Shown here one piece after another: positions 8,012 to 36,037 of a DNA stretch of 64,000 nucleotides (positions are counted from its first letter, which is position 1; every line of letters begins with the position of its first letter). The DNA comes from Minisyncoccota bacterium (lineage in GTDB: Bacteria > Patescibacteriota > Minisyncoccia > Phycocordibacterales > BOKC01). The DNA is taken from NCBI GenBank assembly GCA_030583745.1, contig CP129473.1:530-64529 (forward strand), read 5' to 3'. Both the position numbers and the translations under genes were made by a program. The notes below the pieces were generated by a model that was not told the DNA's origin, did no database searches, and saw nothing but the letters and a program-made list of their open reading frames with translations.

Positions 8012-9781
8012 TTATTTTTGTTTAACAAAAATTTTCCAGATTTTATCAGTTTCAATATACCAGTTGTGAACATTTAGAAATCTGTCACTACTTTGTGATA
8101 TCAAACCCAAATCGACTTCTTTCAGTTTTCGAGGTAAGACATAGATGAAATCCGGAGAATAAATAAATATTGCCGGAGAATCTTCCAAAACTTCTTTTTC
8201 AAATTGTATGTATTTTTTCATCCTTTCGTCTTTGTTCAGGATGACTCTGGCTTCTTCAAGAAGTTTGTCAGTAGTTATATTAGCATAAAGTCCGATATTA
8301 AACCCAGGGTCATTTCTTTGAGAAGAGTGCCAGAATGGGAACAAGTCCAAGTCTCTAGCCGCGCTTATCCCAAAGAGCAGGGATTCGTAATTTCTCGGGC
8401 GAATTACGTTTTGACTTAAATCTCCGTTGGCCTCAAAAAATTTTATGTCAACTTCCGCGCCGATTTTCCTCCACTCTTCTTGTAGTATAGTAGCGACGGC
8501 TTTGAGGTCCGGCAGGTTGCCGGTAGAAATTGAAAATCTTAATTCAGAATTGCCGTCTTTGGTCTTTCTTGTTCTAACACTCTCCCCCTCTCCCAACTTC
8601 CAACCGGCACTCTCCAAAATCTCAATTGCTTTTTCTATCCTATTTGAATCTGGAGAAATGTCTTTGTCTTGTTCAAGTTGCGGTAGGTGGGCAATTGGAA
8701 CCGGACTGTTTATTGACCGACCAAATCCCAGAAGGACTTCTTCAACAATTCTTTCTTTGTCTAAAGACATATCAAGCGCCACCCTGACCTCTTTTTGTGT
8801 AAAGATTGAAGATTCGTTCTGGTTTAGAAATACTCCGAAGATTCTCGGTAGAACATTTGTTTTTACCAAGGCCCCCTTTTCTATTAAACCCGAAGCTTCT
8901 TCGGGAGAAATAGAAGATACACTCTCTATCACCCCTCTTTCAAAAGCTTCTATCAGTTCATTTTCGTTGGTATAGAATCGTAAAATTATGTTCTTTAAAA
9001 ACGGTTCTCCCAAAGTGTAATTTCTAAAAGAAGTTAAGTGATAAGAAATTGGCAATCCGTTCGAATCTTTCTTTAGACTTTTTATTCTATATGGTCCGGA
9101 TCCTACGGGCTCTATATTTAATAGACTGAAAGAAAACTGTTCTTGACTTAGGTTGTTCCAGAGGTGTTTAGGCAATATACCTAAAGTTGCATTGTCCAAA
9201 AACATAGCATATGGCTGGCTTAGTATAAAACTTATAGTCTTGCTGTCTTTTACTTCTGTTTTTACACCTTCCCAATTTGCTCTTCTCGGACTTCTCAGAC
9301 TTGGTTCTTGGATTTTGAGAACGGTGAATTCAACATCCGCGGTTGTGACCGGTTTCCCATCATGAAAATATATTTCGTCTTTCAAGATAAAGGTATATTT
9401 AAGCCCGTCCTCGCTGACCTCCCAACTTTCTGCCAAATCAGGAATGAGCTCTCCTTTCGGTGTAGATTTTAAGAGACCGGAATAAATGAGCGCTACCAAG
9501 TCTCTATCTGCGTTTGAGCCGGGCAAAGCCAAAACAGGGTTTGCAAAACGGGGTGAACCGACGATTCCCTCGACCAGAGTTCCTCCGTGTGCTGGTACTG
9601 GAACAGTTAAAGCGTAATTTGCTCGTAGTAGGAGTGTGGCGCTTGAGATTGAGAGTAGGAGAATCAAGAACAGCCCCAAGACTTTTTCCGTCAAAGAAAG
9701 AGAGTCCAAAACTTTTCCAACCTTTTTCTCGCCGGGTAATTCCCAACTTTGTTTCAATAAGATAGATGCTTTGTTTAACAT
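8012..9781 (-). CDS. ABC transporter substrate-binding protein (family 5, peptide/nickel type)
   Basis: N-terminal TM/signal. Size and composition fit SBP family 5. Confidence 0.6.
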   Translation of the reverse strand: MLNKASILLKQSWELPGEKKVGKVLDSLSLTEKVLGLFLILLLSISSATLLLRANYALTVPVPAHGGTLVEGIVGSPRFANPVLALPGSNADRDLVALIYSGLLKSTPKGELIPDLAESWEVSEDGLKYTFILKDEIYFHDGKPVTTADVEFTVLKIQEPSLRSPRRANWEGVKTEVKDSKTISFILSQPYAMFLDNATLGILPKHLWNNLSQEQFSFSLLNIEPVGSGPYRIKSLKKDSNGLPISYHLTSFRNYTLGEPFLKNIILRFYTNENELIEAFERGVIESVSSISPEEASGLIEKGALVKTNVLPRIFGVFLNQNESSIFTQKEVRVALDMSLDKERIVEEVLLGFGRSINSPVPIAHLPQLEQDKDISPDSNRIEKAIEILESAGWKLGEGESVRTRKTKDGNSELRFSISTGNLPDLKAVATILQEEWRKIGAEVDIKFFEANGDLSQNVIRPRNYESLLFGISAARDLDLFPFWHSSQRNDPGFNIGLYANITTDKLLEEARVILNKDERMKKYIQFEKEVLEDSPAIFIYSPDFIYVLPRKLKEVDLGLISQSSDRFLNVHNWYIETDKIWKIFVKQK

Positions 9782-9825
9782 AAAAATTAGCCGCCTATTG
9801 TTTAGACGCTTTTAACTTAGAAGAT

Positions 9826-30066: not shown

Positions 30067-31029
30067 ATGAAAATTTATGTGACGAGAAAAATTCCCGAAG
30101 CAGGAATAAGTCTTTTAAAAGATAAGGGTTATGAAATTGATGTCAGCCCGCATGACAGAGTGTTGGAAAAATCGGAGTTGATTTCCGCTCTGAAACAAAA
30201 GCCGTATGAGGCGGTTTTGTGTCTTTTAACCGACAAAATTGACGCGGAAGTTTTTGATGCTGTTCCGACAGCCAAAATTTTTGCCAATTATGCTGTCGGA
30301 TTTAATAATATTGATATTGAAGAAGCAAAAAAGCGCGGGATTGTTATAACCAATACGCCAGATGTTTTAACCGACTCTGTTGCCGAGCACACCTTTGCTT
30401 TAGTTATGGCAATTGCTCACCGAATTGTTGAAGCCGACCAATTTGTTCGCGATGGAAAATATGTCGGCTGGGCGCCGGAGCTTCTACTCGGCGCGGATAT
30501 TAAAGGTAAGACCTTGGGAATTTTAGGCGCAGGTAGAATCGGCTCGCAAGTCGCTTTTCAGGGCAAGAATGGTTTTGGTATGAAAATTGCTTATTACGAC
30601 ATCAAGCCGAATTCTGAAATTGAAAAAGAGTTTGGAGCAACCTTTTATCCGTCAGTGGAAGGATTACTTGCTGTTGCCGACTTTGTTTCGCTTCACGTGC
30701 CACTTTTGGATTCAACTCGGCATTTGATAAATGCCGACCGCTTGCGGAAAATGAAAAAAACCGCCTATCTCATAAACACCTCGCGCGGACCGGTGGTGGA
30801 TGAAAAAGCGCTTTTTGAAGCGCTTCGCGACGGGGTAATTGCCGGCGCCGCTCTGGACGTTTTTGAAGAAGAGCCAAAAGTTTATCCGGGGCTAGAAAAA
30901 CTGCAGAATGTTATTTTAACTCCTCACATCGCTTCGGCTACTTTTGAAACTCGTTCCAAAATGTCTGAAATGGCTGCCGAAAATATCATCACCTTTTTTG
31001 AAGGTCAAGAACCGCCGAATGTGGTCTAG
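30067..31029 (+). CDS. D-isomer-specific 2-hydroxyacid dehydrogenase (glyoxylate/hydroxypyruvate reductase-like)
   Basis: GILGAGRIG NAD motif. Conserved catalytic Arg/Glu/His in a formate/glycerate dehydrogenase-like fold. Start taken at MKIYVTRK. Confidence 0.85.
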   Translation: MKIYVTRKIPEAGISLLKDKGYEIDVSPHDRVLEKSELISALKQKPYEAVLCLLTDKIDAEVFDAVPTAKIFANYAVGFNNIDIEEAKKRGIVITNTPDVLTDSVAEHTFALVMAIAHRIVEADQFVRDGKYVGWAPELLLGADIKGKTLGILGAGRIGSQVAFQGKNGFGMKIAYYDIKPNSEIEKEFGATFYPSVEGLLAVADFVSLHVPLLDSTRHLINADRLRKMKKTAYLINTSRGPVVDEKALFEALRDGVIAGAALDVFEEEPKVYPGLEKLQNVILTPHIASATFETRSKMSEMAAENIITFFEGQEPPNVV

Positions 31030-31280
31030 GCGCTAGGTTTTTAGGCTCTAGGGTCTAGCCAATAGGGTTTAGGGCGTAGTCCGCCTCCGCCAGTTGACGG
31101 AGGCGGCTTGGCTGGAAAAGCCCTTATCGGGTATTCTATGAGTTAACGGGTGTTGAACTTTGGGGTTGAATTTACCTACGCGAGTATTGACATATTTATT
31201 AAAATATGATAGGTATATTAACGGAATTCACAGGGTGTTCCTGTGGAAGTTCTTCGTTAGCTTGCTGAAAGGAGCAAAGC

Positions 31281-31946
31281 ATGAAGCCTCGTACAGTTCG
31301 GGTCCTCTGCAGGGGTATTTCGCCCATTCTCATGGACCAGATGACAGAGGAGACCCTCGACAGCCTCGCAACCAGCGTCCGGCAGAACAAACCCAAGGAC
31401 AGACCGTTTGCGGATGTCGCGGAGGAGAAAATCTACCGCGACCCTATGACAGAGCGCATCGGCATCCCCTCGGAGATGCTCTTCGCTTGTTTGGTCGCAG
31501 CGGGCCGGAAGGTCAAGAACGGCAAGAGCCAGATCTCCACAGCAACCTCCTCGACCGTTCCGGACTTTCTCGAGATCCCCGACTTTTTCTTTCCGTTTCT
31601 CGGCATCCCCGAGAACGTGGAGCCGCGATCGGAAGACGAGAGGCAGCACTGGAAGGTGGATAAGAGACGAGGGCGTCTGCCCATCAACGGAACCGCTGTC
31701 TGCCTCATCCGTCCCCGCTTCAACAACTGGGAATTCAAGGTCACAGTGATCTACGATGCCGACAAGATCGATGGTTCTACGCTGAAGGCTCTCTTTGTGA
31801 ATGCCGGCAGTGGCCAAGGTCTTGGTTCGTTCCGCCCCAACTGCAGGGGTACCTTCGGGAAGTTCGTTGTCGTTTCTTGGGAGGAGACGGCCGGCGCTGT
31901 GAAGGAGGACGAGACGGAAGAGACGGACGTTCTCGCGGCTGCATGA
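31281..31946 (+). CDS. Hypothetical 221-aa protein with a C-terminal glycine-rich loop (possibly RAMP/Cas6- or Cas7-like). Unverified.
   Basis: Strong SD (aaaggag, 6 nt before the ATG). GC-rich with good coding periodicity. Segment FVNAGSGQGLGSFRPNCRGTFGKF is reminiscent of RAMP glycine-rich loops. Terminator at 32007..32045. Overlapping antisense ORFs are treated as spurious. Confidence 0.5.
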   Translation: MKPRTVRVLCRGISPILMDQMTEETLDSLATSVRQNKPKDRPFADVAEEKIYRDPMTERIGIPSEMLFACLVAAGRKVKNGKSQISTATSSTVPDFLEIPDFFFPFLGIPENVEPRSEDERQHWKVDKRRGRLPINGTAVCLIRPRFNNWEFKVTVIYDADKIDGSTLKALFVNAGSGQGLGSFRPNCRGTFGKFVVVSWEETAGAVKEDETEETDVLAAA

Positions 31947-32006
31947 CTGTGTGAAGTCAAGTCCAGCATCCTGGACTATACTCTAGTTAAGTACGCTCGC
32001 GTGCTC

Positions 32007-32045
32007 AAACCCCGTCGCTTCACCGTGGCGGGGTTTCTTTTCTAA
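32007..32045 (+). terminator. Intrinsic terminator after the 221-aa gene
   Basis: Stem aaaccccg/cggggttt followed by tttcttttct. Confidence 0.7.
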
Positions 32046-32134
32046 ACATCCAACGGTTTATACTACAGTCAAGTAGAGTCTAGCAAGGTAGGGTTAGGTC
32101 GAGTGCAATAGAGTTCAGTAGTTCAGTATAGAGT

Positions 32135-32681
32135 GAAGTTGCTAAAAAGTAACTTTGCTAATTAGAGGAGGTTAAAATTGTAGTGACGTGTAGTTCTGTT
32201 CCGTCGTCTGCGGTGGGGTGAAGTATACGGCAGAATCTTCGAAAGGGGATTCTGTCAATTATATATCGTGTCGTCCACTACAGTGCAGTTCGGCAAAGTT
32301 AGGTACGGTGGTCAGGTGGCGATTTTCGAGAGAAAGCCGCCACCTCTTTGCTTTCGGTGCGGTGTTTTGGGGTCCAATACCATGAACTATTGTGCAACAA
32401 GAGTCTTCGAAAGGAGATTTTACTGTTTTTAACTACAGCTCCCCAGACTACTCTTAGGTAGTGTTGCCTGACGCAAGGTATAGTGCAGGGCAGAATCTTC
32501 GAAAGGAGATTCTGTCGCTTTCTTCAGTGGAGTTAAGTTACCTCCCGTCGCGTATAGTCCACTACACGTCAGAATATCTGAAAAGATATTCTGACATTTC
32601 CTTGGTCTGTAGCAACCTGCAGTAAGGTGGGCTCCAGTATAGTTTAGTTCAGGTTAGAATCACTGAAAAGTGCTTCTAACA
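32135..32681 (+). repeat. Array 1: seven non-identical hairpins about 80-97 nt apart, capped by GNRA tetraloops (6x GAAA/GAGA, one AAAA)
   Basis: Hairpins: 32135-32156, 32231-32254 (cagaatcttc GAAA ggggattctg), 32315-32344 (..GAGA..), 32399-32421, 32491-32514, 32570-32593 and 32653-32680. Stems differ but keep pairing through compensatory and G.U changes that only pair on the + strand RNA. Motifs ACUACAG and GUAUAG recur between hairpins. Confidence 0.7.
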
Positions 32682-32744
32682 CTTACGATTTAGGTGGTGT
32701 GTAGTTCACTTAAGTAGACTCCAGCAAGCTACAGTATTGTACAC

Positions 32745-32785
32745 AACCCGCTTCGTCTTAAATGGTGAAGCGGGTTTTTGTTTGA
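32745..32785 (+). terminator. Intrinsic terminator closing array 1
   Basis: Stem aacccgcttc/gaagcgggtt followed by tttgtttg. Confidence 0.75.
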
Positions 32786-32872
32786 CAAGATCCAAAAAAT
32801 ATGTATTCTTGTTACTGGAAGTTCATTGTGAACTTGCACCATCTGAAACATCTGGAATATTGGAGATCAAGA

Positions 32873-34741
32873 ATGACAACAGAAACGAGAAAAAGAGGCG
32901 CTCTGAACTTGGAACGCCTTGCGGGAAACTTCCCAAGCCGATTCTCAAGAATGAGAGTTGCGCAGGAAGAAGCACTCAAATTCGTGGCAGAAAACGGCTC
33001 AAGCATTGTCGAAGCACCAACAGGGTCGGGAAAGACTGCGATTGAGATTGCCATTCTACGCGCTGGACAAGAGGTGGGAATGGAAACTCTCTTCCTCATC
33101 GTTCCCAACAAGACGATCCTCGGACAAATCAGAGAAGAGTTTCCAGGTGATGTGAAAGTCGCATTGGGACGAAACGAGCATCCGTGTCTCTACTACGAGG
33201 AGAAGAAGACAGAGATTACAGTTGAAGGAGTCAGGCTTCTGTCAGATGATCCTGAAAGCATCAAAGCGGATGAGATTCCGTGCTCGATGCTTCTTGATTG
33301 TCCGCATCGAGTTGACCAGGAAACTGGAGAGACTCACACAAAGGGTGCCTTCCCGTGCCCTTACCTTCAGCAAAAGTACGAGGCCAAACAGGGCGGTATC
33401 GTGCTTTGCACGATGTCTTTCTATCTCTTCACACAACTTTTCAGCAGAGAGTGGGAACGGCCGAATATCTTGGTGATCGATGAAGCACATCGCATCGCCG
33501 AGGTCTTTCGAAACGCTCTGTCCTACGAAATCTCTGATCACCACATCGAGAAGGCGGTAGGAATCCTCAAGCTCATTGGAGCAGGAGAAGAATCGACAGC
33601 GCTGGAGTTGTTTCTCAAGAAGATGATTAGAATCATCAAGGGGAAATCCAGAGGGAAGCTGCCTCTCCTCGAACCAGAGGAGCTCTACACCTTGATAGAG
33701 ACGCTATCACTTATCGACACCAAGGAGTTGGGAAAGAAGGTGAGTGGCGCGGTCAAGGAAGGCAAGCTTAACGCCAAGGCAGACAGAACAACGCTTCGCA
33801 AGCTCGAGGTGCTGATTCGAGACTTGAAGCGCTACATTCGATCTTTTGAGTTCTCTATGCCGGCTTCCAACCGACATGCTCTCAACTACACCTACGCCAC
33901 CTGGCGCGAAGAAAAGCAAAAGGGTCAGAAAGTCCAGTACCAACTGGTCATCAAGGCCTACTATGTCGCCCCGCTCATCAAGAAAGTGATGGGCGATACG
34001 ACGGTCTCTTTTTCCGCCACCATTGGCGATCCGGATGTCTTTGGTTTCGAAACCGGAATCAGAGATCCGTTCGTTAGCTTGGGCGGACACTTTCCAGCCA
34101 ACAACACCAGAATCTTTATGCCCTCGGACACTCCGAATCTGGCTATGAATGCCAGGTCAAATCAGGAGCCAACCAGGGTTCTGCGTCGGATCGCCAAGGC
34201 CTGCAAGCGATTTTCCCAAAAGGGAATTCGTTCGCTGGTCGTGGTAGTTTCCAATGCAGAGCGAGACAAATTCCTAATGCTCGCGGAAGAAGAAGACGTC
34301 TATGCTATAAGCTACGGCAACGGAGTCACCGCAAGGGATGCCGCCCAACTCTTCAAGGGAGGAGAAGGTGATGTTCTCGTTGGCACTGCCTCAAACTACG
34401 CTGAAGGTGTTGATCTTCCAAAGAATCTGGCACCGGTCATCTTCGTCCTCCGACCCGGATATCCGAATCCAAAGGACCCGGGCACAATCTTTGAGGAGAA
34501 GAGATTTGGTAGTCAGCGCTGGCAGATCTGGAACTGGAGGGTGATGCTTCAGGCTCTTCAGGCTCGAGGCAGAAACCTGCGAAGCGTCAACGATATCGGC
34601 GTGACTATCTTCATCTCCCAGCAGTTTAGGCGATTTGTTTTCGCATCTCTGCCGGAGAGTCTGAAGGAGTCATATGTTCGTGACAAGACCTTCGATGAGT
34701 GTGTCAATAGTACTCTTGAACACCTGAATAGAGTCCTGTAG
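32873..34741 (+). CDS. DinG/XPD (Rad3)-family SF2 DEAH helicase with a 4-Cys (putative Fe-S) insertion
   Basis: Walker A is EAPTGSGKT and motif II is VIDEAHR. Four Cys lie between motifs I and II (HPC, IPC, DCPH, FPCPY). The C-terminal helicase motif LVGTASNYAEGVDLP is DinG-like. SD GGAG precedes the ATG at 32873. An alternative start is at 32801. Confidence 0.75.
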   Translation: MTTETRKRGALNLERLAGNFPSRFSRMRVAQEEALKFVAENGSSIVEAPTGSGKTAIEIAILRAGQEVGMETLFLIVPNKTILGQIREEFPGDVKVALGRNEHPCLYYEEKKTEITVEGVRLLSDDPESIKADEIPCSMLLDCPHRVDQETGETHTKGAFPCPYLQQKYEAKQGGIVLCTMSFYLFTQLFSREWERPNILVIDEAHRIAEVFRNALSYEISDHHIEKAVGILKLIGAGEESTALELFLKKMIRIIKGKSRGKLPLLEPEELYTLIETLSLIDTKELGKKVSGAVKEGKLNAKADRTTLRKLEVLIRDLKRYIRSFEFSMPASNRHALNYTYATWREEKQKGQKVQYQLVIKAYYVAPLIKKVMGDTTVSFSATIGDPDVFGFETGIRDPFVSLGGHFPANNTRIFMPSDTPNLAMNARSNQEPTRVLRRIAKACKRFSQKGIRSLVVVVSNAERDKFLMLAEEEDVYAISYGNGVTARDAAQLFKGGEGDVLVGTASNYAEGVDLPKNLAPVIFVLRPGYPNPKDPGTIFEEKRFGSQRWQIWNWRVMLQALQARGRNLRSVNDIGVTIFISQQFRRFVFASLPESLKESYVRDKTFDECVNSTLEHLNRVL

Positions 34742-34799
34742 CCTACAGTTTGGTGCGCCAAGTTATTCTAGCGTTTTCTAGAGTCGGGTTCACTACACA

Positions 34800-34835
34800 A
34801 GCGTTCCGAGTAAAATCGGGACGCTTTTTTGTTTG
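34800..34835 (+). terminator. Intrinsic terminator after the helicase
   Basis: Stem agcgttccg/cgggacgct with a G.U pair, followed by ttttttgtttg. Confidence 0.7.
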
Positions 34836-34946
34836 TTATTCCTTTTTTATAAAAAATATGTTATAAAAGTTTTTGGCTTGTTCTTTATAGTTACCTAAAC
34901 CATTCTTTTCTGCGGTGCACTGCCGTATCCTTTCGTGCCCTATAGA

Positions 34947-35243
34947 TCCAGATCCTCGAAAGAGGTTCTGGATAATTTCAGTTACCTCATGTTCTGTACG
35001 GTATGCTGTCGTAACCTTCTCTGAAGGTCTAAACTCCTGAAAGGGGGTTTAGACGATTTTCCAGTAAAGTTCGGCTCAATAACGTAGCACTTACTAAGAT
35101 GCAGGACAGATAAGACAGAGATGTTTTATCTTGTCATTACCAGACTGGTTAGATACAGTGAGGTTAGGTGTCGTGAAGTTGAGTTTAGTCATCTGAAGTC
35201 GTCTGGACTATACGACAGCAGAGATTGAAAAATCTTTGCTGTC
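34947..35243 (+). repeat. Array 2: four or more GNRA-capped hairpins (GAAA, GAAA, GAGA, GAAA) at about 80-110 nt spacing
   Basis: Hairpins: 34947-34972, 35027-35054, 35108-35131 and 35214-35243. The upstream (GUAUAG-like) and CUACAG motifs are the same as in array 1. Confidence 0.65.
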
Positions 35244-35319
35244 ATTGCTCCCTACCCTATACCACTCTTCACTACAGTGTATCCCGGTGTTCTCAAGTGG
35301 TTTTCAGTTAAGTACACAA

Positions 35320-35350
35320 GCTCCGCTTCGGCGGGGCTTTTCTATTGATT
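35320..35350 (+). terminator. Intrinsic terminator closing array 2 (UUCG tetraloop)
   Basis: gctccgc ttcg gcggggc followed by ttttctattgatttt. Confidence 0.7.
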
Positions 35351-35371
35351 TTCAAATAAAATTATGCGACA

Positions 35372-36037
35372 ATGGCAATTATGCTGACTTTAGAAACTAA
35401 AATTCGTAATAAAAAAGGCAATCAAACTCTTCGTAAAGAAGGGTGGATGCCGGCGGTTTTTTATGGCAAGAAAGAGCCAGCCACAGCTATTGCTGTTGAT
35501 TCTGTTGCTTTCGGCAAGGTTTTGAAAGAAGCTGGTGAGTCATCCGTCGTAATATTAGAGACCGAAAGTGGCCAGAAGCAGGCATTGATAAAAGATGTTC
35601 AATTTGACCCAGTAACTGACACACCGAGACACGCAGATTTTTATGTTTTTGAAAAAGGTCATAAGCTAGAAGTTGACGTTCCGCTTGTGTTTGAGGGCGT
35701 TTCGCCTGCTGTTAAAGAGCTTGGTGGAATTTTAGTTAAAGTTTTGCACGAACTTAAAATCAGAGCTATGCCGAAGGATTTACCGCATGAAATAAAAATT
35801 GATATTTCCACACTTAAAGATTTTGAAAGTCAGATATTAGCCAAAGACATAAAGTTGCCGGAGGGCGTTGAGCTTCTTGAAGGACCAGAGGAAGTCATAG
35901 CGCTTACAGAGGAAGCTAAAGAAGAAATTGAGGAAGAAGTTGTCGCGCCTGATTTGTCTTCGATTGAAGTTGAAAAGAAAGGCAAGAAGGAAGAGGAACC
36001 TTCTCCTGAAAGCGGTGGAACAGCAGAAGAGAAATAA
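35372..36037 (+). CDS. rplY: Ribosomal protein L25 / general stress protein Ctc, with an acidic C-terminal tail
   Basis: N-terminal L25 fold sequence (LETKIRNKKGNQTLRKEGWMPAVFYG). Confidence 0.85.
   Translation: MAIMLTLETKIRNKKGNQTLRKEGWMPAVFYGKKEPATAIAVDSVAFGKVLKEAGESSVVILETESGQKQALIKDVQFDPVTDTPRHADFYVFEKGHKLEVDVPLVFEGVSPAVKELGGILVKVLHELKIRAMPKDLPHEIKIDISTLKDFESQILAKDIKLPEGVELLEGPEEVIALTEEAKEEIEEEVVAPDLSSIEVEKKGKKEEEPSPESGGTAEEK

What the first reader, a model, noticed from the sequence alone, without database searches (positions are those of the whole stretch)
31281..31946. 221-aa protein with a RAMP-like glycine-rich loop. Could be the RNA-processing or RNA-binding partner.
The segment ...KALFVNAGSGQGLGSFRPNCRGTFGKFVVV near the C-terminus resembles the G-rich loop that defines Cas5/Cas6/Cas7 RAMPs. 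The size matches small Csm3/Cas6-type proteins, and it sits immediately upstream of hairpin array 1 with a strong SD. I cannot confirm the fold from sequence alone.
Basis: inference. Interest (0 to 1): 0.6.

Follow-up and report, generated by a model that had tools for sequence, protein, structure and literature searches.

The report
Vipr guide-RNA protein of a VIPR system
The 221-aa protein is a real, conserved, CRISPR-like (RAMP-fold) RNA-binding protein of the recently described VIPR family; with about 15 neighbouring pentamer-repeat guide RNAs and a DinG/XPD-type helicase it forms a compact RNA-guided DNA-targeting locus in what is probably a Patescibacteria chromosome.

Summary

More precisely, it is a Vipr protein. 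The family profile matches the solved SUSP1 Vipr (PDB 36pp) over its full length, E 1.3e-11. VIPR systems were described in two 2026 bioRxiv preprints.

The "hairpin arrays" are vrRNA arrays of about 15 units. Each unit has 10-12 pentamers reading U-N-N-N-G/C, followed by a 12-bp GAAA hairpin or an intrinsic terminator. TNNNG occurs 65/150 times against a null of 10.3±3.2, and all 12 stem pairs covary.

The 646-aa neighbour is an Fe-S XPD/DinG-type helicase. It sits next to vipr in nearly all Patescibacteria-clade loci and in none of the distant or viral ones.

Vipr residues that contact G2 and Y3 of the repeat are conserved, but those that contact G1 are not. This fits the YNNNS repeat seen here.

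No targets were found in nine collection scans.

Verdict: a new member of a known, very recently described kind. Interest is moderate.

The parts
31270..31274 (+). Shine-Dalgarno AGGAG, 6 nt upstream of the vipr ATG
   Evidence: read directly from the sequence
31281..31946 (+). vipr: 221-aa single-RRM RAMP protein (Vipr). G-loop at residues about 176-193, thumb beta-hairpin at about 125-147.
31947..32036 (+). vrRNA T1. It starts right after the vipr stop codon: 12 pentamers (31947-32006), then an intrinsic terminator hairpin (32007-32036).
32037..32159 (+). vrRNA H1. Tract 32065-32131 (NNRGU pentamers with one 3-nt slip), then a 12-bp hairpin with an AAAA loop (32132-32159).
32160..32256 (+). 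vrRNA H2. Ten UNNNG pentamers (32179-32228), then a 12-bp GAAA hairpin (32229-32256).
32257..32345 (+). vrRNA Hx. About 10 pentamers (about 32263-32315, one base out of register with its hairpin), then the hairpin GGTGGCG...GCCGCCACC.
32346..32421 (+). Degenerate unit H3. The pentamer signal is weak; it ends in a 9-bp GAAA hairpin (32400-32421).
32422..32516 (+). vrRNA H4. Eleven pentamers (32434-32488), then a 12-bp GAAA hairpin (32489-32516).
32517..32595 (+). vrRNA H5. Ten pentamers (32518-32567), then a 12-bp GAAA hairpin (32568-32595).
32596..32680 (+). vrRNA H6. Eleven pentamers (32598-32652), then a GAAA hairpin (32653-32680).
32681..32776 (+). vrRNA T2, the last unit of array 1. Eleven pentamers (32690-32744), then an intrinsic terminator (32745-32776).
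32782..32809 (+). Promoter-like site TTGACA-16-TATTCT in front of the helicase gene.
   Evidence: a consensus match only
32801..34741 (+). vap: XPD/DinG-type SF2 helicase. The ORF runs from 32801, but the likely true start is the ATG at 32873, preceded by GGAG. It has Walker A GSGKT (residue 75), DEAH (residue 227) and four clade-invariant Cys (C129, C161, C167, C186).
34742..34826 (+). vrRNA T3. It starts right after the helicase stop codon: 11 pentamers (34744-34798), then an intrinsic terminator (34799-34826).
34886..34973 (+). vrRNA H7. Twelve pentamers (34886-34945), then a GAAA hairpin (34946-34973).
34974..35054 (+). vrRNA H8. Ten pentamers (34977-35026), then a 12-bp GAAA hairpin (35027-35054).
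35055..35131 (+). Degenerate unit H9. The pentamer signal is weak; it ends in a 10-bp GAGA hairpin (35108-35131).
35132..35243 (+). vrRNA H10. Twelve pentamers, all with U at position 1 (35154-35213), then a 13-bp GAAA hairpin (35214-35243).
35244..35339 (+). vrRNA T4, the last unit of array 2. Twelve pentamers (35258-35317), then an intrinsic terminator (35318-35339).

Best explanation
The ORF encodes Vipr, the single-RRM RAMP protein of a VIPR (Viral Interference Programmable Repeat) system.

Inferred mechanism, by homology to the characterised SUSP1 and P. fulva systems:
- One Vipr protomer binds each 5-nt repeat of a vrRNA, and the protomers polymerise into a helical filament.
- The conserved bases of each repeat (here U at position 1 and G/C at position 5) are flipped into protein pockets.
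- The variable bases are presented for gapped pairing with double-stranded DNA. In SUSP1 this is two paired bases and one skipped base per repeat, in an R-loop triplex.

Here about 15 vrRNAs are encoded on the + strand in the two non-coding stretches that flank the second gene. Each carries 10-12 YNNNS pentamers capped by a 12-bp GAAA hairpin or a terminator hairpin.

The second gene is an Fe-S XPD/DinG-type helicase and is the clade-specific accessory (vap) protein. I infer that it is recruited to Vipr-bound DNA and acts as the effector, unwinding the target or clearing it of polymerases. This would be analogous to CasDinG in type IV CRISPR.

Shown here: the gene, the fold, homology to Vipr, the repeat and tail anatomy, and the conserved linkage with the helicase. 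Inferred: filament formation, DNA targeting, the skip rule for this repeat variant, and the helicase's role.
For: - **Homology to Vipr.** A profile of 39 family members matches PDB 36pp_D 'SUSP1 Vipr protein' at E 1.3e-11, covering positions 2-193 of 201 against residues 2-192 of 202. It also matches phrog_4652 at E 1e-17.
- **Published description of VIPR.** Vipr plus vrRNAs with 9-16 pentanucleotide repeats and a structured 3' tail in the intergenic DNA flanking vipr; a vap gene; no CRISPR array; alternative repeat types that include YNNNG; types III-V with nuclease or helicase vaps.
- **Repeat tracts in the window.** All period-5 NNNGT tracts in the 64 kb lie in the two intergenic regions and on the + strand. 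Anchored on the hairpin starts, position 1 is T in 70% and position 5 is G/C in 87% of pentamers. TNNNG occurs in 65 of 150 pentamers against a null of 10.3±3.2 (maximum 23 in 5,000 trials).
- **Tail hairpin.** 95% of cells are paired, all 12 pairs show compensatory changes, and 0 of 500 shuffles reach the observed values.
- **Same register in other genomes.** In 24 independent loci, position 1 is Y in 75% and position 5 is S in 72%, while positions 2-4 are near-uniform.
- **Helicase linkage.** The helicase is adjacent in nearly all Patescibacteria-clade loci and in none of more than 120 distant or viral loci.
- **Contact residues.** SUSP1 residues that contact G2 and Y3 are conserved: R138->R144 (39/39), W178->F184 (38/39), R179->R185 (39/39), E71/M72->E65/M66. 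The G1 contacts are not: H17->D19, D177->S183. This matches the loss of the first G in the repeat.
- **Transcription.** Four + strand terminators divide the locus into sensible transcription units.
Against: - There are no expression data, and RNA binding has not been shown for this protein.
[quoted passage not shown] Seven viral-contig scans and two metagenome-contig scans gave no hit.
- The repeat consensus (YNNNS) differs from the characterised GGY/NN repeat, so the pairing rule may differ.
- Identity to SUSP1 Vipr is low. Homology rests on a profile match and the fold.
- Two units (H3, H9) lack a clear tract, and two (H1, Hx) are out of register with their hairpins.
- The assignment to a particular published VIPR type could not be checked, because the figures and data tables are not held.
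Confidence: 0.85

Rival explanations
1. A reduced relative of type IV CRISPR-Cas. On this reading the protein is a Csf2/Cas7-like backbone subunit working with a CasDinG-like helicase, and the arrays are highly degenerate CRISPR-like arrays.
For: - The helicase's best defence-library match is the PADLOC typeIV_DinG profile, E 1.8e-37, over nearly its full length.
- As in type IV systems, a guide-binding RAMP is paired with a DinG helicase and no nuclease.
Against: - Sequence homology is to Vipr, not to Csf2.
- The island contains no Csf1, Cas5/Csf3 or Cas6.
- There is no CRISPR array anywhere in the 64 kb.
- NCBIfam cas_csf4 scores 19.6 bits against a cut-off of 400.
- The helicase has four invariant Cys typical of Fe-S XPD/DinG. 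From my own knowledge, CasDinG has only a vestigial Fe-S domain.
- The RNA units are pentamer tracts, not repeat-spacer units.
Confidence: 0.05
2. A Cas6-like endoribonuclease that recognises the GAAA hairpins and cuts the array transcripts into units. This is the 'RNA-processing partner' reading.
For: - The arrays are punctuated by a conserved 12-bp GNRA hairpin. Such hairpins are the kind of element that Cas6 enzymes bind.
- How the units are processed is not known.
Against: - The protein has a single RRM, whereas Cas6 has two.
- No His or Tyr is invariant in the family.
- The residues that hold the repeat bases in SUSP1 Vipr are conserved.
- Four of the units end in terminators rather than GAAA hairpins.
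Confidence: 0.04
3. An RNA-targeting or purely regulatory ribonucleoprotein. Vipr-vrRNA filaments would bind host or foreign RNAs, or act as a sponge, and would not bind DNA. The helicase would act as an RNA/DNA helicase in RNA metabolism.
For: - SUSP1 Vipr can pair its guide with ssRNA in vitro.
- The closest solved folds are RNA-targeting type III subunits.
- No DNA target could be found.
Against: - In the characterised systems, RNA targets give incomplete filaments, and silencing depends on the DNA triplex.
- Residues that clamp the non-target DNA strand are conserved here: K82->R76 (36/39), G87->G81, K88->K82.
- XPD/DinG helicases are DNA helicases.
Confidence: 0.05

Closest known systems
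VIPR systems (Vipr + vrRNA), as in Escherichia phage SUSP1 and the Pseudomonas fulva prophage (bioRxiv 10.64898/2026.04.26.720920 and 10.64898/2026.04.26.720927; PDB 36pp)
   Same: - A protein of about 200 aa with a single-RRM RAMP fold, G-loop and thumb, with full-length profile homology.
- Guide RNAs of about 80-110 nt made of 10-12 pentanucleotide repeats plus a structured 3' tail, encoded in the intergenic DNA flanking vipr, some singly and some in arrays.
- A two-gene locus (vipr plus one vap) with no CRISPR array.
- The residues that hold G2 and Y3 and that clamp the non-target strand are conserved.
   Different: - The repeat reads Y-N-N-N-S (U-N-N-N-G/C) rather than Y-N-N-G-G. The G1-contact residues are changed (H17->D, D177->S).
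- The tail is a simple 12-bp GAAA hairpin or a terminator, not a pseudoknot.
- The vap is a 620-650-aa Fe-S XPD/DinG helicase, not a small DNA-binding protein.
- The locus is chromosomal, sits between housekeeping genes, and is probably in a Patescibacteria genome rather than a phage.
- The targets and the skip rule are unverified.
VIPR types with enzymatic vaps (types III-V in the preprint). By elimination the helicase-bearing type is probably type IV.
   Same: The preprint says that types III-V encode nucleases or helicases, that only types III and V encode nucleases, and that alternative YNNNG repeats exist. This fits a helicase-only locus with YNNNS repeats.
   Different: The type could not be confirmed. 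The type figure, trees and data tables are not held as text.
Type III/VII CRISPR backbone RAMPs (Csm3, Cmr4, Cmr6, Cas7)
   Different: - Sequence identity is only 10-16%, and neither Pfam nor NCBIfam gave any match to the protein.
- Periodicity is 5 nt rather than 6 nt.
- There are no partner Cas proteins and no CRISPR repeats.
Type IV-A CRISPR-Cas with CasDinG (Csf4)
   Same: An RNA-guided RAMP filament is paired with a DinG-family helicase and no nuclease. The helicase matches the PADLOC typeIV_DinG profile, E 1.8e-37.
   Different: - The helicase falls far below the NCBIfam Csf4 cut-off and has four invariant Fe-S-type cysteines.
- There is no Csf1, Csf3 or Cas6 and no CRISPR array.

Membership tests
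VIPR (Vipr protein family) | Sequence homology to an experimentally characterised Vipr | tested here: met
   The family profile matches PDB 36pp_D (SUSP1 Vipr) at E 1.3e-11, 47 bits, over the full length. It also matches phrog_4652 at E 1.1e-17.
VIPR (Vipr protein family) | Minimal single-RRM RAMP fold with a G-loop between helix 2 and strand 4, and a thumb hairpin | tested here: met
VIPR (Vipr protein family) | Residues that hold the conserved repeat bases (G2: R138, W178; Y3: E71, M72, R179) and that clamp the non-target strand (K82, G87, K88) | tested here: met
   The equivalents are R144 (39/39), F184 (38/39), R185 (39/39), E65, M66, R76 (36/39), G81 (36/39) and K82 (K or R in 35/39).
VIPR (Vipr protein family) | Residues that read G1 of the GGY motif (H17, D177) | tested here: not met
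   H17->D19 (family: D 25, N 12). D177->S183 (family: S 21, D 13). This fits the repeat here lacking a conserved first G. It marks a variant and does not exclude membership.
VIPR (system) | vrRNAs: 9-16 tandem pentanucleotide repeats in which conserved and hypervariable positions alternate, encoded beside vipr | tested here: met
   There are 13 clear units of 10-12 pentamers. T at position 1 is 70%, S at position 5 is 87%, and positions 2-3 are near-uniform. TNNNG occurs in 65/150 pentamers against a null of 10.3±3.2. The same register is seen in 24 other loci. The consensus is YNNNS. The preprint lists YNNNG as an alternative.
VIPR (system) | Structurally conserved 3' tail capping the repeat tract | tested here: met
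   The tail is a 12-bp stem with a GAAA loop. All 12 pairs covary and 95% of cells are paired. Four units end in terminator hairpins instead. The SUSP1 clade has a pseudoknot here.
VIPR (system) | Minimal locus: vipr plus one accessory vap gene, with no CRISPR array | tested here: met
   The island holds two genes. The helicase is conserved next to vipr across the clade. No CRISPR-like repeats occur in the 64 kb.
VIPR (system) | vrRNAs are expressed, co-purify with Vipr, and direct gapped (1-nt-skip) dsDNA recognition | not testable with these tools
   This needs sRNA-seq, pull-down and binding assays. Computational target searches under the 1-nt-skip rule found nothing, which is uninformative given how few Patescibacteria phages have been sampled.
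CRISPR-Cas type IV | Csf1, Csf2 (Cas7) and Csf3 (Cas5) effector genes plus a CRISPR array | tested here: not met
CRISPR-Cas type IV | CasDinG (Csf4) helicase | tested here: inconclusive
   The PADLOC typeIV_DinG profile PDLC01439 matches at E 1.8e-37. NCBIfam cas_csf4 gives only 19.6 bits against a cut-off of 400. The best solved relatives are archaeal XPD. Four Cys are invariant. No phylogeny was made.
Cas6 endoribonucleases | Two RRM-like domains, a G-rich loop, and a catalytic His or Tyr | tested here: not met
Csm3/Cmr4 (type III Cas7) | Membership of the curated RAMP sequence families and a type III gene context | tested here: not met
   Pfam gave no match to any family at E<=1, and NCBIfam gave none at E<=0.01. 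There is no cas10 or csm gene nearby. The similarity is in fold only.

The most novel reading that the evidence does not exclude
In this helicase-linked, Patescibacteria-centred clade the first G of the GGY motif is no longer read: the H17 and D177 equivalents are D/N and S/D, and position 4 of the repeat is near-random. Each pentamer may therefore carry three informative bases and follow a different pairing or skip rule from the published NN+1 code. In addition, the Vipr filament may recruit an Fe-S XPD/DinG helicase as its effector. If so, this clade would be a living intermediate between VIPR and type IV (CasDinG) CRISPR-Cas.
Probability: 0.15. Interest if true: 0.7.

Novelty: new member of a known kind. 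Interest (0 to 1): 0.42.

Why it matters
VIPR is a newly reported mode of RNA-guided DNA recognition, proposed to be older than CRISPR. This locus is a clean, complete chromosomal example: one small RAMP protein, about 15 guide RNAs and one helicase.

It comes from a lineage, probably Patescibacteria, in which defence systems are sparse. It uses a repeat variant (YNNNS) whose decoding rule has not been tested.

The match between the altered G1-contact residues and the altered repeat gives a direct, testable link between protein sequence and guide-RNA code. The conserved Fe-S XPD/DinG partner gives a handle on how a binding-only system might gain an effector, as type IV CRISPR did.

For annotation, it means that phrog_4652-like 'hypothetical proteins' and their long 'non-coding' flanks can be labelled.

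Tried and rejected
- **Curated protein libraries.** Pfam, NCBIfam and PADLOC scans of the 221-aa protein gave no hit. Only PHROGs and the PDB sequence profile identified it.
- **Rfam on 30800-35600.** This gave only a sub-threshold GcvB match (23 bits against a gathering score of 42) and a miRNA match. I judge both to be chance. No hammerhead or other known RNA family was found.
- **Simple GGY scan.** No NNGGY tracts were found. The signal appeared only as NNNGT/NNRGY, and then as TNNNG once anchored on the hairpin starts.
- **Target prediction under the published 1-nt-skip rule.**
  - In the window plus 164 held loci, the best scores were 17-19 of 24, equal to shuffled controls. The only perfect hits were the trivial self-matches at skip 3.
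  - Seven exact-pattern scans of viral contigs and two of metagenome contigs returned nothing.
  - Mismatch-tolerant scans of the collections are not possible with these tools.
- **MAFFT --add of the SUSP1 sequence to the family alignment.** This misaligned the G-loop. I replaced it with an HMM-based alignment.
- **Published VIPR type.** I could not determine it. The text names no helicase type explicitly, and the figures and data tables are not held.
- **Other period-5 peaks in the window** (about 46371 and about 17046). On inspection these are not repeat tracts.
- **Antisense and overlapping ORFs.** Rejected, see the observation check.
Full report
**1. The observation**

ORF 31281-31946 (+) encodes 221 aa and contains the quoted C-terminal segment. 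AGGAG lies 6 nt upstream of the ATG.

The region stands out in composition. G+C is 0.58 over the ORF and about 0.50 over the next gene, against about 0.40 in the flanks. That explains the long overlapping ORFs on both strands.

The + frame is the real gene:
- The word-indexed search found 40 homologues, E 1e-29 to 1e-145, all about 200-260 aa and none annotated.
- Their alignment has 13 invariant columns, concentrated in the motifs WxVDKRRG, RP(K/R)F and AGxxxGLGxFRPxxxGxFGRF.
- An exhaustive profile search found 6,516 cluster representatives at E<=1e-3 and 2,077 at E<=1e-10.
- AlphaFold2 with this alignment gives pLDDT 91.4 and pTM 0.84.

**2. What the protein is**

Pfam, NCBIfam and PADLOC have nothing for it. 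PHROGs has an unannotated family, phrog_4652, E 1e-17.

A profile search of PDB sequences gives one significant hit: 36pp_D, 'SUSP1 Vipr protein', E 1.3e-11, aligned end to end.

The model is a single-RRM RAMP.
- Foldseek's best solved matches are Csm3 and type VII Cas7 (E 5.7e-8, TM about 0.5).
- The G-rich segment lies between helix 165-179 and strand 195-203, the canonical RAMP G-loop position. Residues 125-147 form the thumb hairpin.

**3. What is known about Vipr**

Two 2026 bioRxiv preprints describe VIPR systems (10.64898/2026.04.26.720920 and 10.64898/2026.04.26.720927).
- Vipr is a minimal RAMP, found mostly in phages and prophages.
- It is flanked by intergenic regions that encode vrRNAs of about 100 nt.
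- Each vrRNA has 9-16 YNNGG pentamers, with conserved GGY alternating with hypervariable NN, followed by a structured 3' tail.
- Vipr protomers bind one repeat each and form a helical filament. GGY is flipped into protein pockets. The NN dinucleotides pair with dsDNA, skipping every third target base, in an R-loop triplex.
- The outcome is transcriptional silencing of competing mobile elements.
- Seven types are defined. Alternative repeats (NNNGG, YNNNG, NNNNG) are mentioned. Types III-V carry nuclease or helicase accessory (vap) genes, and only III and V carry nucleases.

**4. The neighbouring RNA**

A scan of the whole window for period-5 tracts found them only in 32065-32558 and 35155-35189, and all on the + strand.

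When the intergenic sequence is laid out in pentamers anchored on the start of each strong hairpin or terminator, one register appears. Position 1 is T in 70% of 150 pentamers. Position 5 is G or C in 87%. Positions 2-3 are near-uniform, and position 4 is mildly A-rich. TNNNG occurs 65 times against 10.3±3.2 for random placements, maximum 23 in 5,000 trials.

There are 15 units:
- Nine between vipr and the second gene: T1, H1, H2, Hx, H3, H4, H5, H6, T2.
- Six after the second gene: T3, H7, H8, H9, H10, T4.
- Eleven are in exact register with their hairpin. H1 has a 3-nt slip, Hx is offset by one base, and H3 and H9 are degenerate.

The tail in ten units is a stem of about 12 bp with a GAAA loop (AAAA in H1, GAGA in H9). 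On an alignment of these ten, 95% of cells pair, all 12 pairs show compensatory changes, and none of 500 shuffles reaches the observed values. The hairpins also dominate the predicted folds of whole units, while the tracts fold inconsistently.

The other four in-register tails are intrinsic terminators on the + strand, at 32007, 32745, 34799 and 35318. Each protein gene is therefore followed immediately by a terminator-tailed vrRNA, and each array ends in one. Unit lengths of 79-112 nt match the published vrRNA size.

**5. Conservation of the whole arrangement**

Contigs that carry homologues show vipr, then 0.6-1.6 kb of non-coding DNA, then a helicase of about 600-630 aa.

Searches of GTDB species representatives and of IMG/VR gave 159 further loci.
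- All genome hits at 39% identity or more are Patescibacteria MAGs: Parcubacteria, Saccharibacteria, Paceibacterota, Doudnabacteria, Taylorbacteria, Nomurabacteria.
- tblastn with the window's helicase finds it next to vipr in 31 loci. All but one of these (a MAG labelled Gammaproteobacteria) are Patescibacteria-type or unclassified 'bacterium' MAGs. It is usually downstream and sometimes divergent. The few clade members without it are cut by a contig end.
- It was found in none of the more distant bacterial or viral loci.

In 24 of these loci, the 50 nt upstream of intergenic hairpins show the same register: Y at position 1 in 75%, S at position 5 in 72%, and positions 2-4 near-uniform. The strongest period-5 signal falls in the same intergenic regions.

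The flanking genes differ between loci and are housekeeping genes. In the window they are a 2-hydroxyacid dehydrogenase and ribosomal protein L25. The locus is therefore chromosomal and not in a recognisable prophage. The host assignment rests on these relatives and on 40-53% identity of a few flanking proteins to Patescibacteria MAGs. It is an inference.

**6. Protein-RNA concordance**

I reconstructed the SUSP1 sequence from the HMMER alignment. Its numbering reproduces 13 of the 14 residues named in the structure paper. I then aligned it to the family HMM.

| Role in SUSP1 Vipr | SUSP1 residue | Window residue | Family column (39 sequences) |
|---|---|---|---|
| Holds G2 | R138 | R144 | 39/39 |
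| Holds G2 | W178 | F184 | 38/39 |
| Holds Y3 | R179 | R185 | 39/39 |
| Holds Y3 | E71, M72 | E65, M66 | E 25, M 22 |
| Clamps non-target DNA strand | K82 | R76 | 36/39 |
| Clamps non-target DNA strand | G87 | G81 | 36/39 |
| Clamps non-target DNA strand | K88 | K82 | K/R 35/39 |
| Reads G1 | H17 | D19 | D 25, N 12 |
| Reads G1 | D177 | S183 | S 21, D 13 |

The two residues that read G1 are the ones replaced. This is what the repeat shows: the pyrimidine and the second G persist (positions 1 and 5 here), and the first G is lost.

Across loci, those with Asp in the G-loop have G at position 4 in 34% of pentamers (20 loci, 157 units). Those with Ser have 16% G and 37% A (3 loci, 23 units). This is suggestive, but the Ser sample is small.

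**7. The helicase**

- It has Pfam Helicase_C_2, DEAD and DEAD_2 domains.
- It matches phrog_2488 at E 9e-40.
- Its best PADLOC profile is typeIV_DinG, E 1.8e-37.
- NCBIfam Csf4 gives only 19.6 bits against a cut-off of 400, and DinG, YoaA and Rad3 models score similarly weakly.
- The closest solved sequences are archaeal XPD.
- Four Cys (C129, C161, C167, C186) between Walker A (residue 75) and DEAH (residue 227) are invariant in 24-25 of 25 clade members. This is the Fe-S domain pattern of XPD/DinG.
- The real start is probably the ATG at 32873. It is preceded by GGAG, it lies downstream of the promoter-like site at 32782-32809, and it gives a length matching the homologues.

**8. Mechanism and rivals**

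The best-supported reading is a VIPR system. Vipr coats the pentamer tracts of about 13-15 vrRNAs and directs them to DNA, and the helicase acts as the effector. The gene, the fold, the homology, the RNA anatomy and the linkage are shown. Filament formation, DNA targeting, the skip rule and the helicase's role are inferred.

The rivals are a reduced type IV CRISPR relative, a Cas6-like processing enzyme, and an RNA-targeting RNP. Each fails at least one tested feature (see the rival and membership sections).

**9. Targets**

Under the published NN+1-skip rule, no target was found in the window or held loci, nor by nine exact-pattern scans of the viral and metagenome collections. This is not informative against the model. 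Exact matching over 9-11 repeats is strict, phages of these bacteria are poorly sampled, and the rule itself may differ for YNNNS repeats.

**10. Novelty**

The kind is known, but only since the April-June 2026 preprints. Those already mention helicase vaps and YNNNG repeats. I therefore rate this a new member of a known kind.

The details worked out here are, as far as the held text shows, not described:
- GNRA-hairpin and terminator tails.
- A vrRNA fused to the 3' end of each gene.
- The Fe-S nature of the helicase.
- The restriction of the helicase to the Patescibacteria clade.
- The match between the G1-contact substitutions and the repeat consensus.

I could not see the preprints' figures or data tables, so this is uncertain.

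Noticed in passing
window 31281-34741 versus its flanks: The two-gene island is G+C-rich (0.50-0.59) in a genome of about 0.40. It lies between housekeeping genes: a 2-hydroxyacid dehydrogenase upstream and ribosomal protein L25 downstream. No integrase or att-like repeats were seen. This suggests horizontal acquisition, but no mobility gene is present.
   Followed up: partly
window 32801-32875: The helicase ORF as listed starts at 32801. A promoter-like site (32782-32809) overlaps that ATG, and a GGAG precedes a second ATG at 32873. Homologues are 598-633 aa long. The real start is probably 32873, giving 622 aa.
   Followed up: partly
loci L002-L057 (vipr G-loop) and their intergenic arrays: Loci whose Vipr has Asp at the G-loop position equivalent to SUSP1 D177 have more G at repeat position 4 than loci with Ser: 34% in 20 loci against 16% in 3 loci. 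This may be a protein-RNA co-variation, but the Ser sample is small.
   Followed up: partly
window 31947-32036 and 34742-34826; also L002 8685-8790, L003 8622-8700, L005 6931-7035: A pentamer tract with a hairpin or terminator begins directly after the stop codon of vipr and, in the window, of the helicase. The first guide is therefore probably co-transcribed with the mRNA and uses the mRNA terminator as its tail.
   Followed up: partly
window units H2, H4, H5, H6, H10, T1-T4 (last 1-3 pentamers before each hairpin): The pentamers nearest the tail are similar between units: UAUAG or UAUAC before GAAA hairpins, and UACAC before three of the four terminators. This may be a fixed 3' handle rather than guide sequence.
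   Followed up: no
window 35121-35345: There is a sub-threshold Rfam match to GcvB (23.1 bits, gathering score 42). It spans a GU-rich pentamer tract and the T4 terminator, and I judge it a chance resemblance.
   Followed up: yes
window 52281-52502 (inside ORF 51852-53480, +): A long CCN-rich imperfect tandem repeat (13 overlapping copies), which would encode a proline-rich stretch in the + strand ORF. It is unrelated to the finding.
   Followed up: no
L005 about 9610-9800: By eye, two tRNA-like sequences on the minus strand follow directly after the second vrRNA array of this related locus. In the same locus the L25 gene lies about 4 kb downstream of the helicase, which partly matches the synteny in the window.
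   Followed up: no
L004 12054-12537: In this related locus, a ParE toxin and RHH antitoxin gene pair lies downstream of the helicase-proximal vrRNA array.
   Followed up: no
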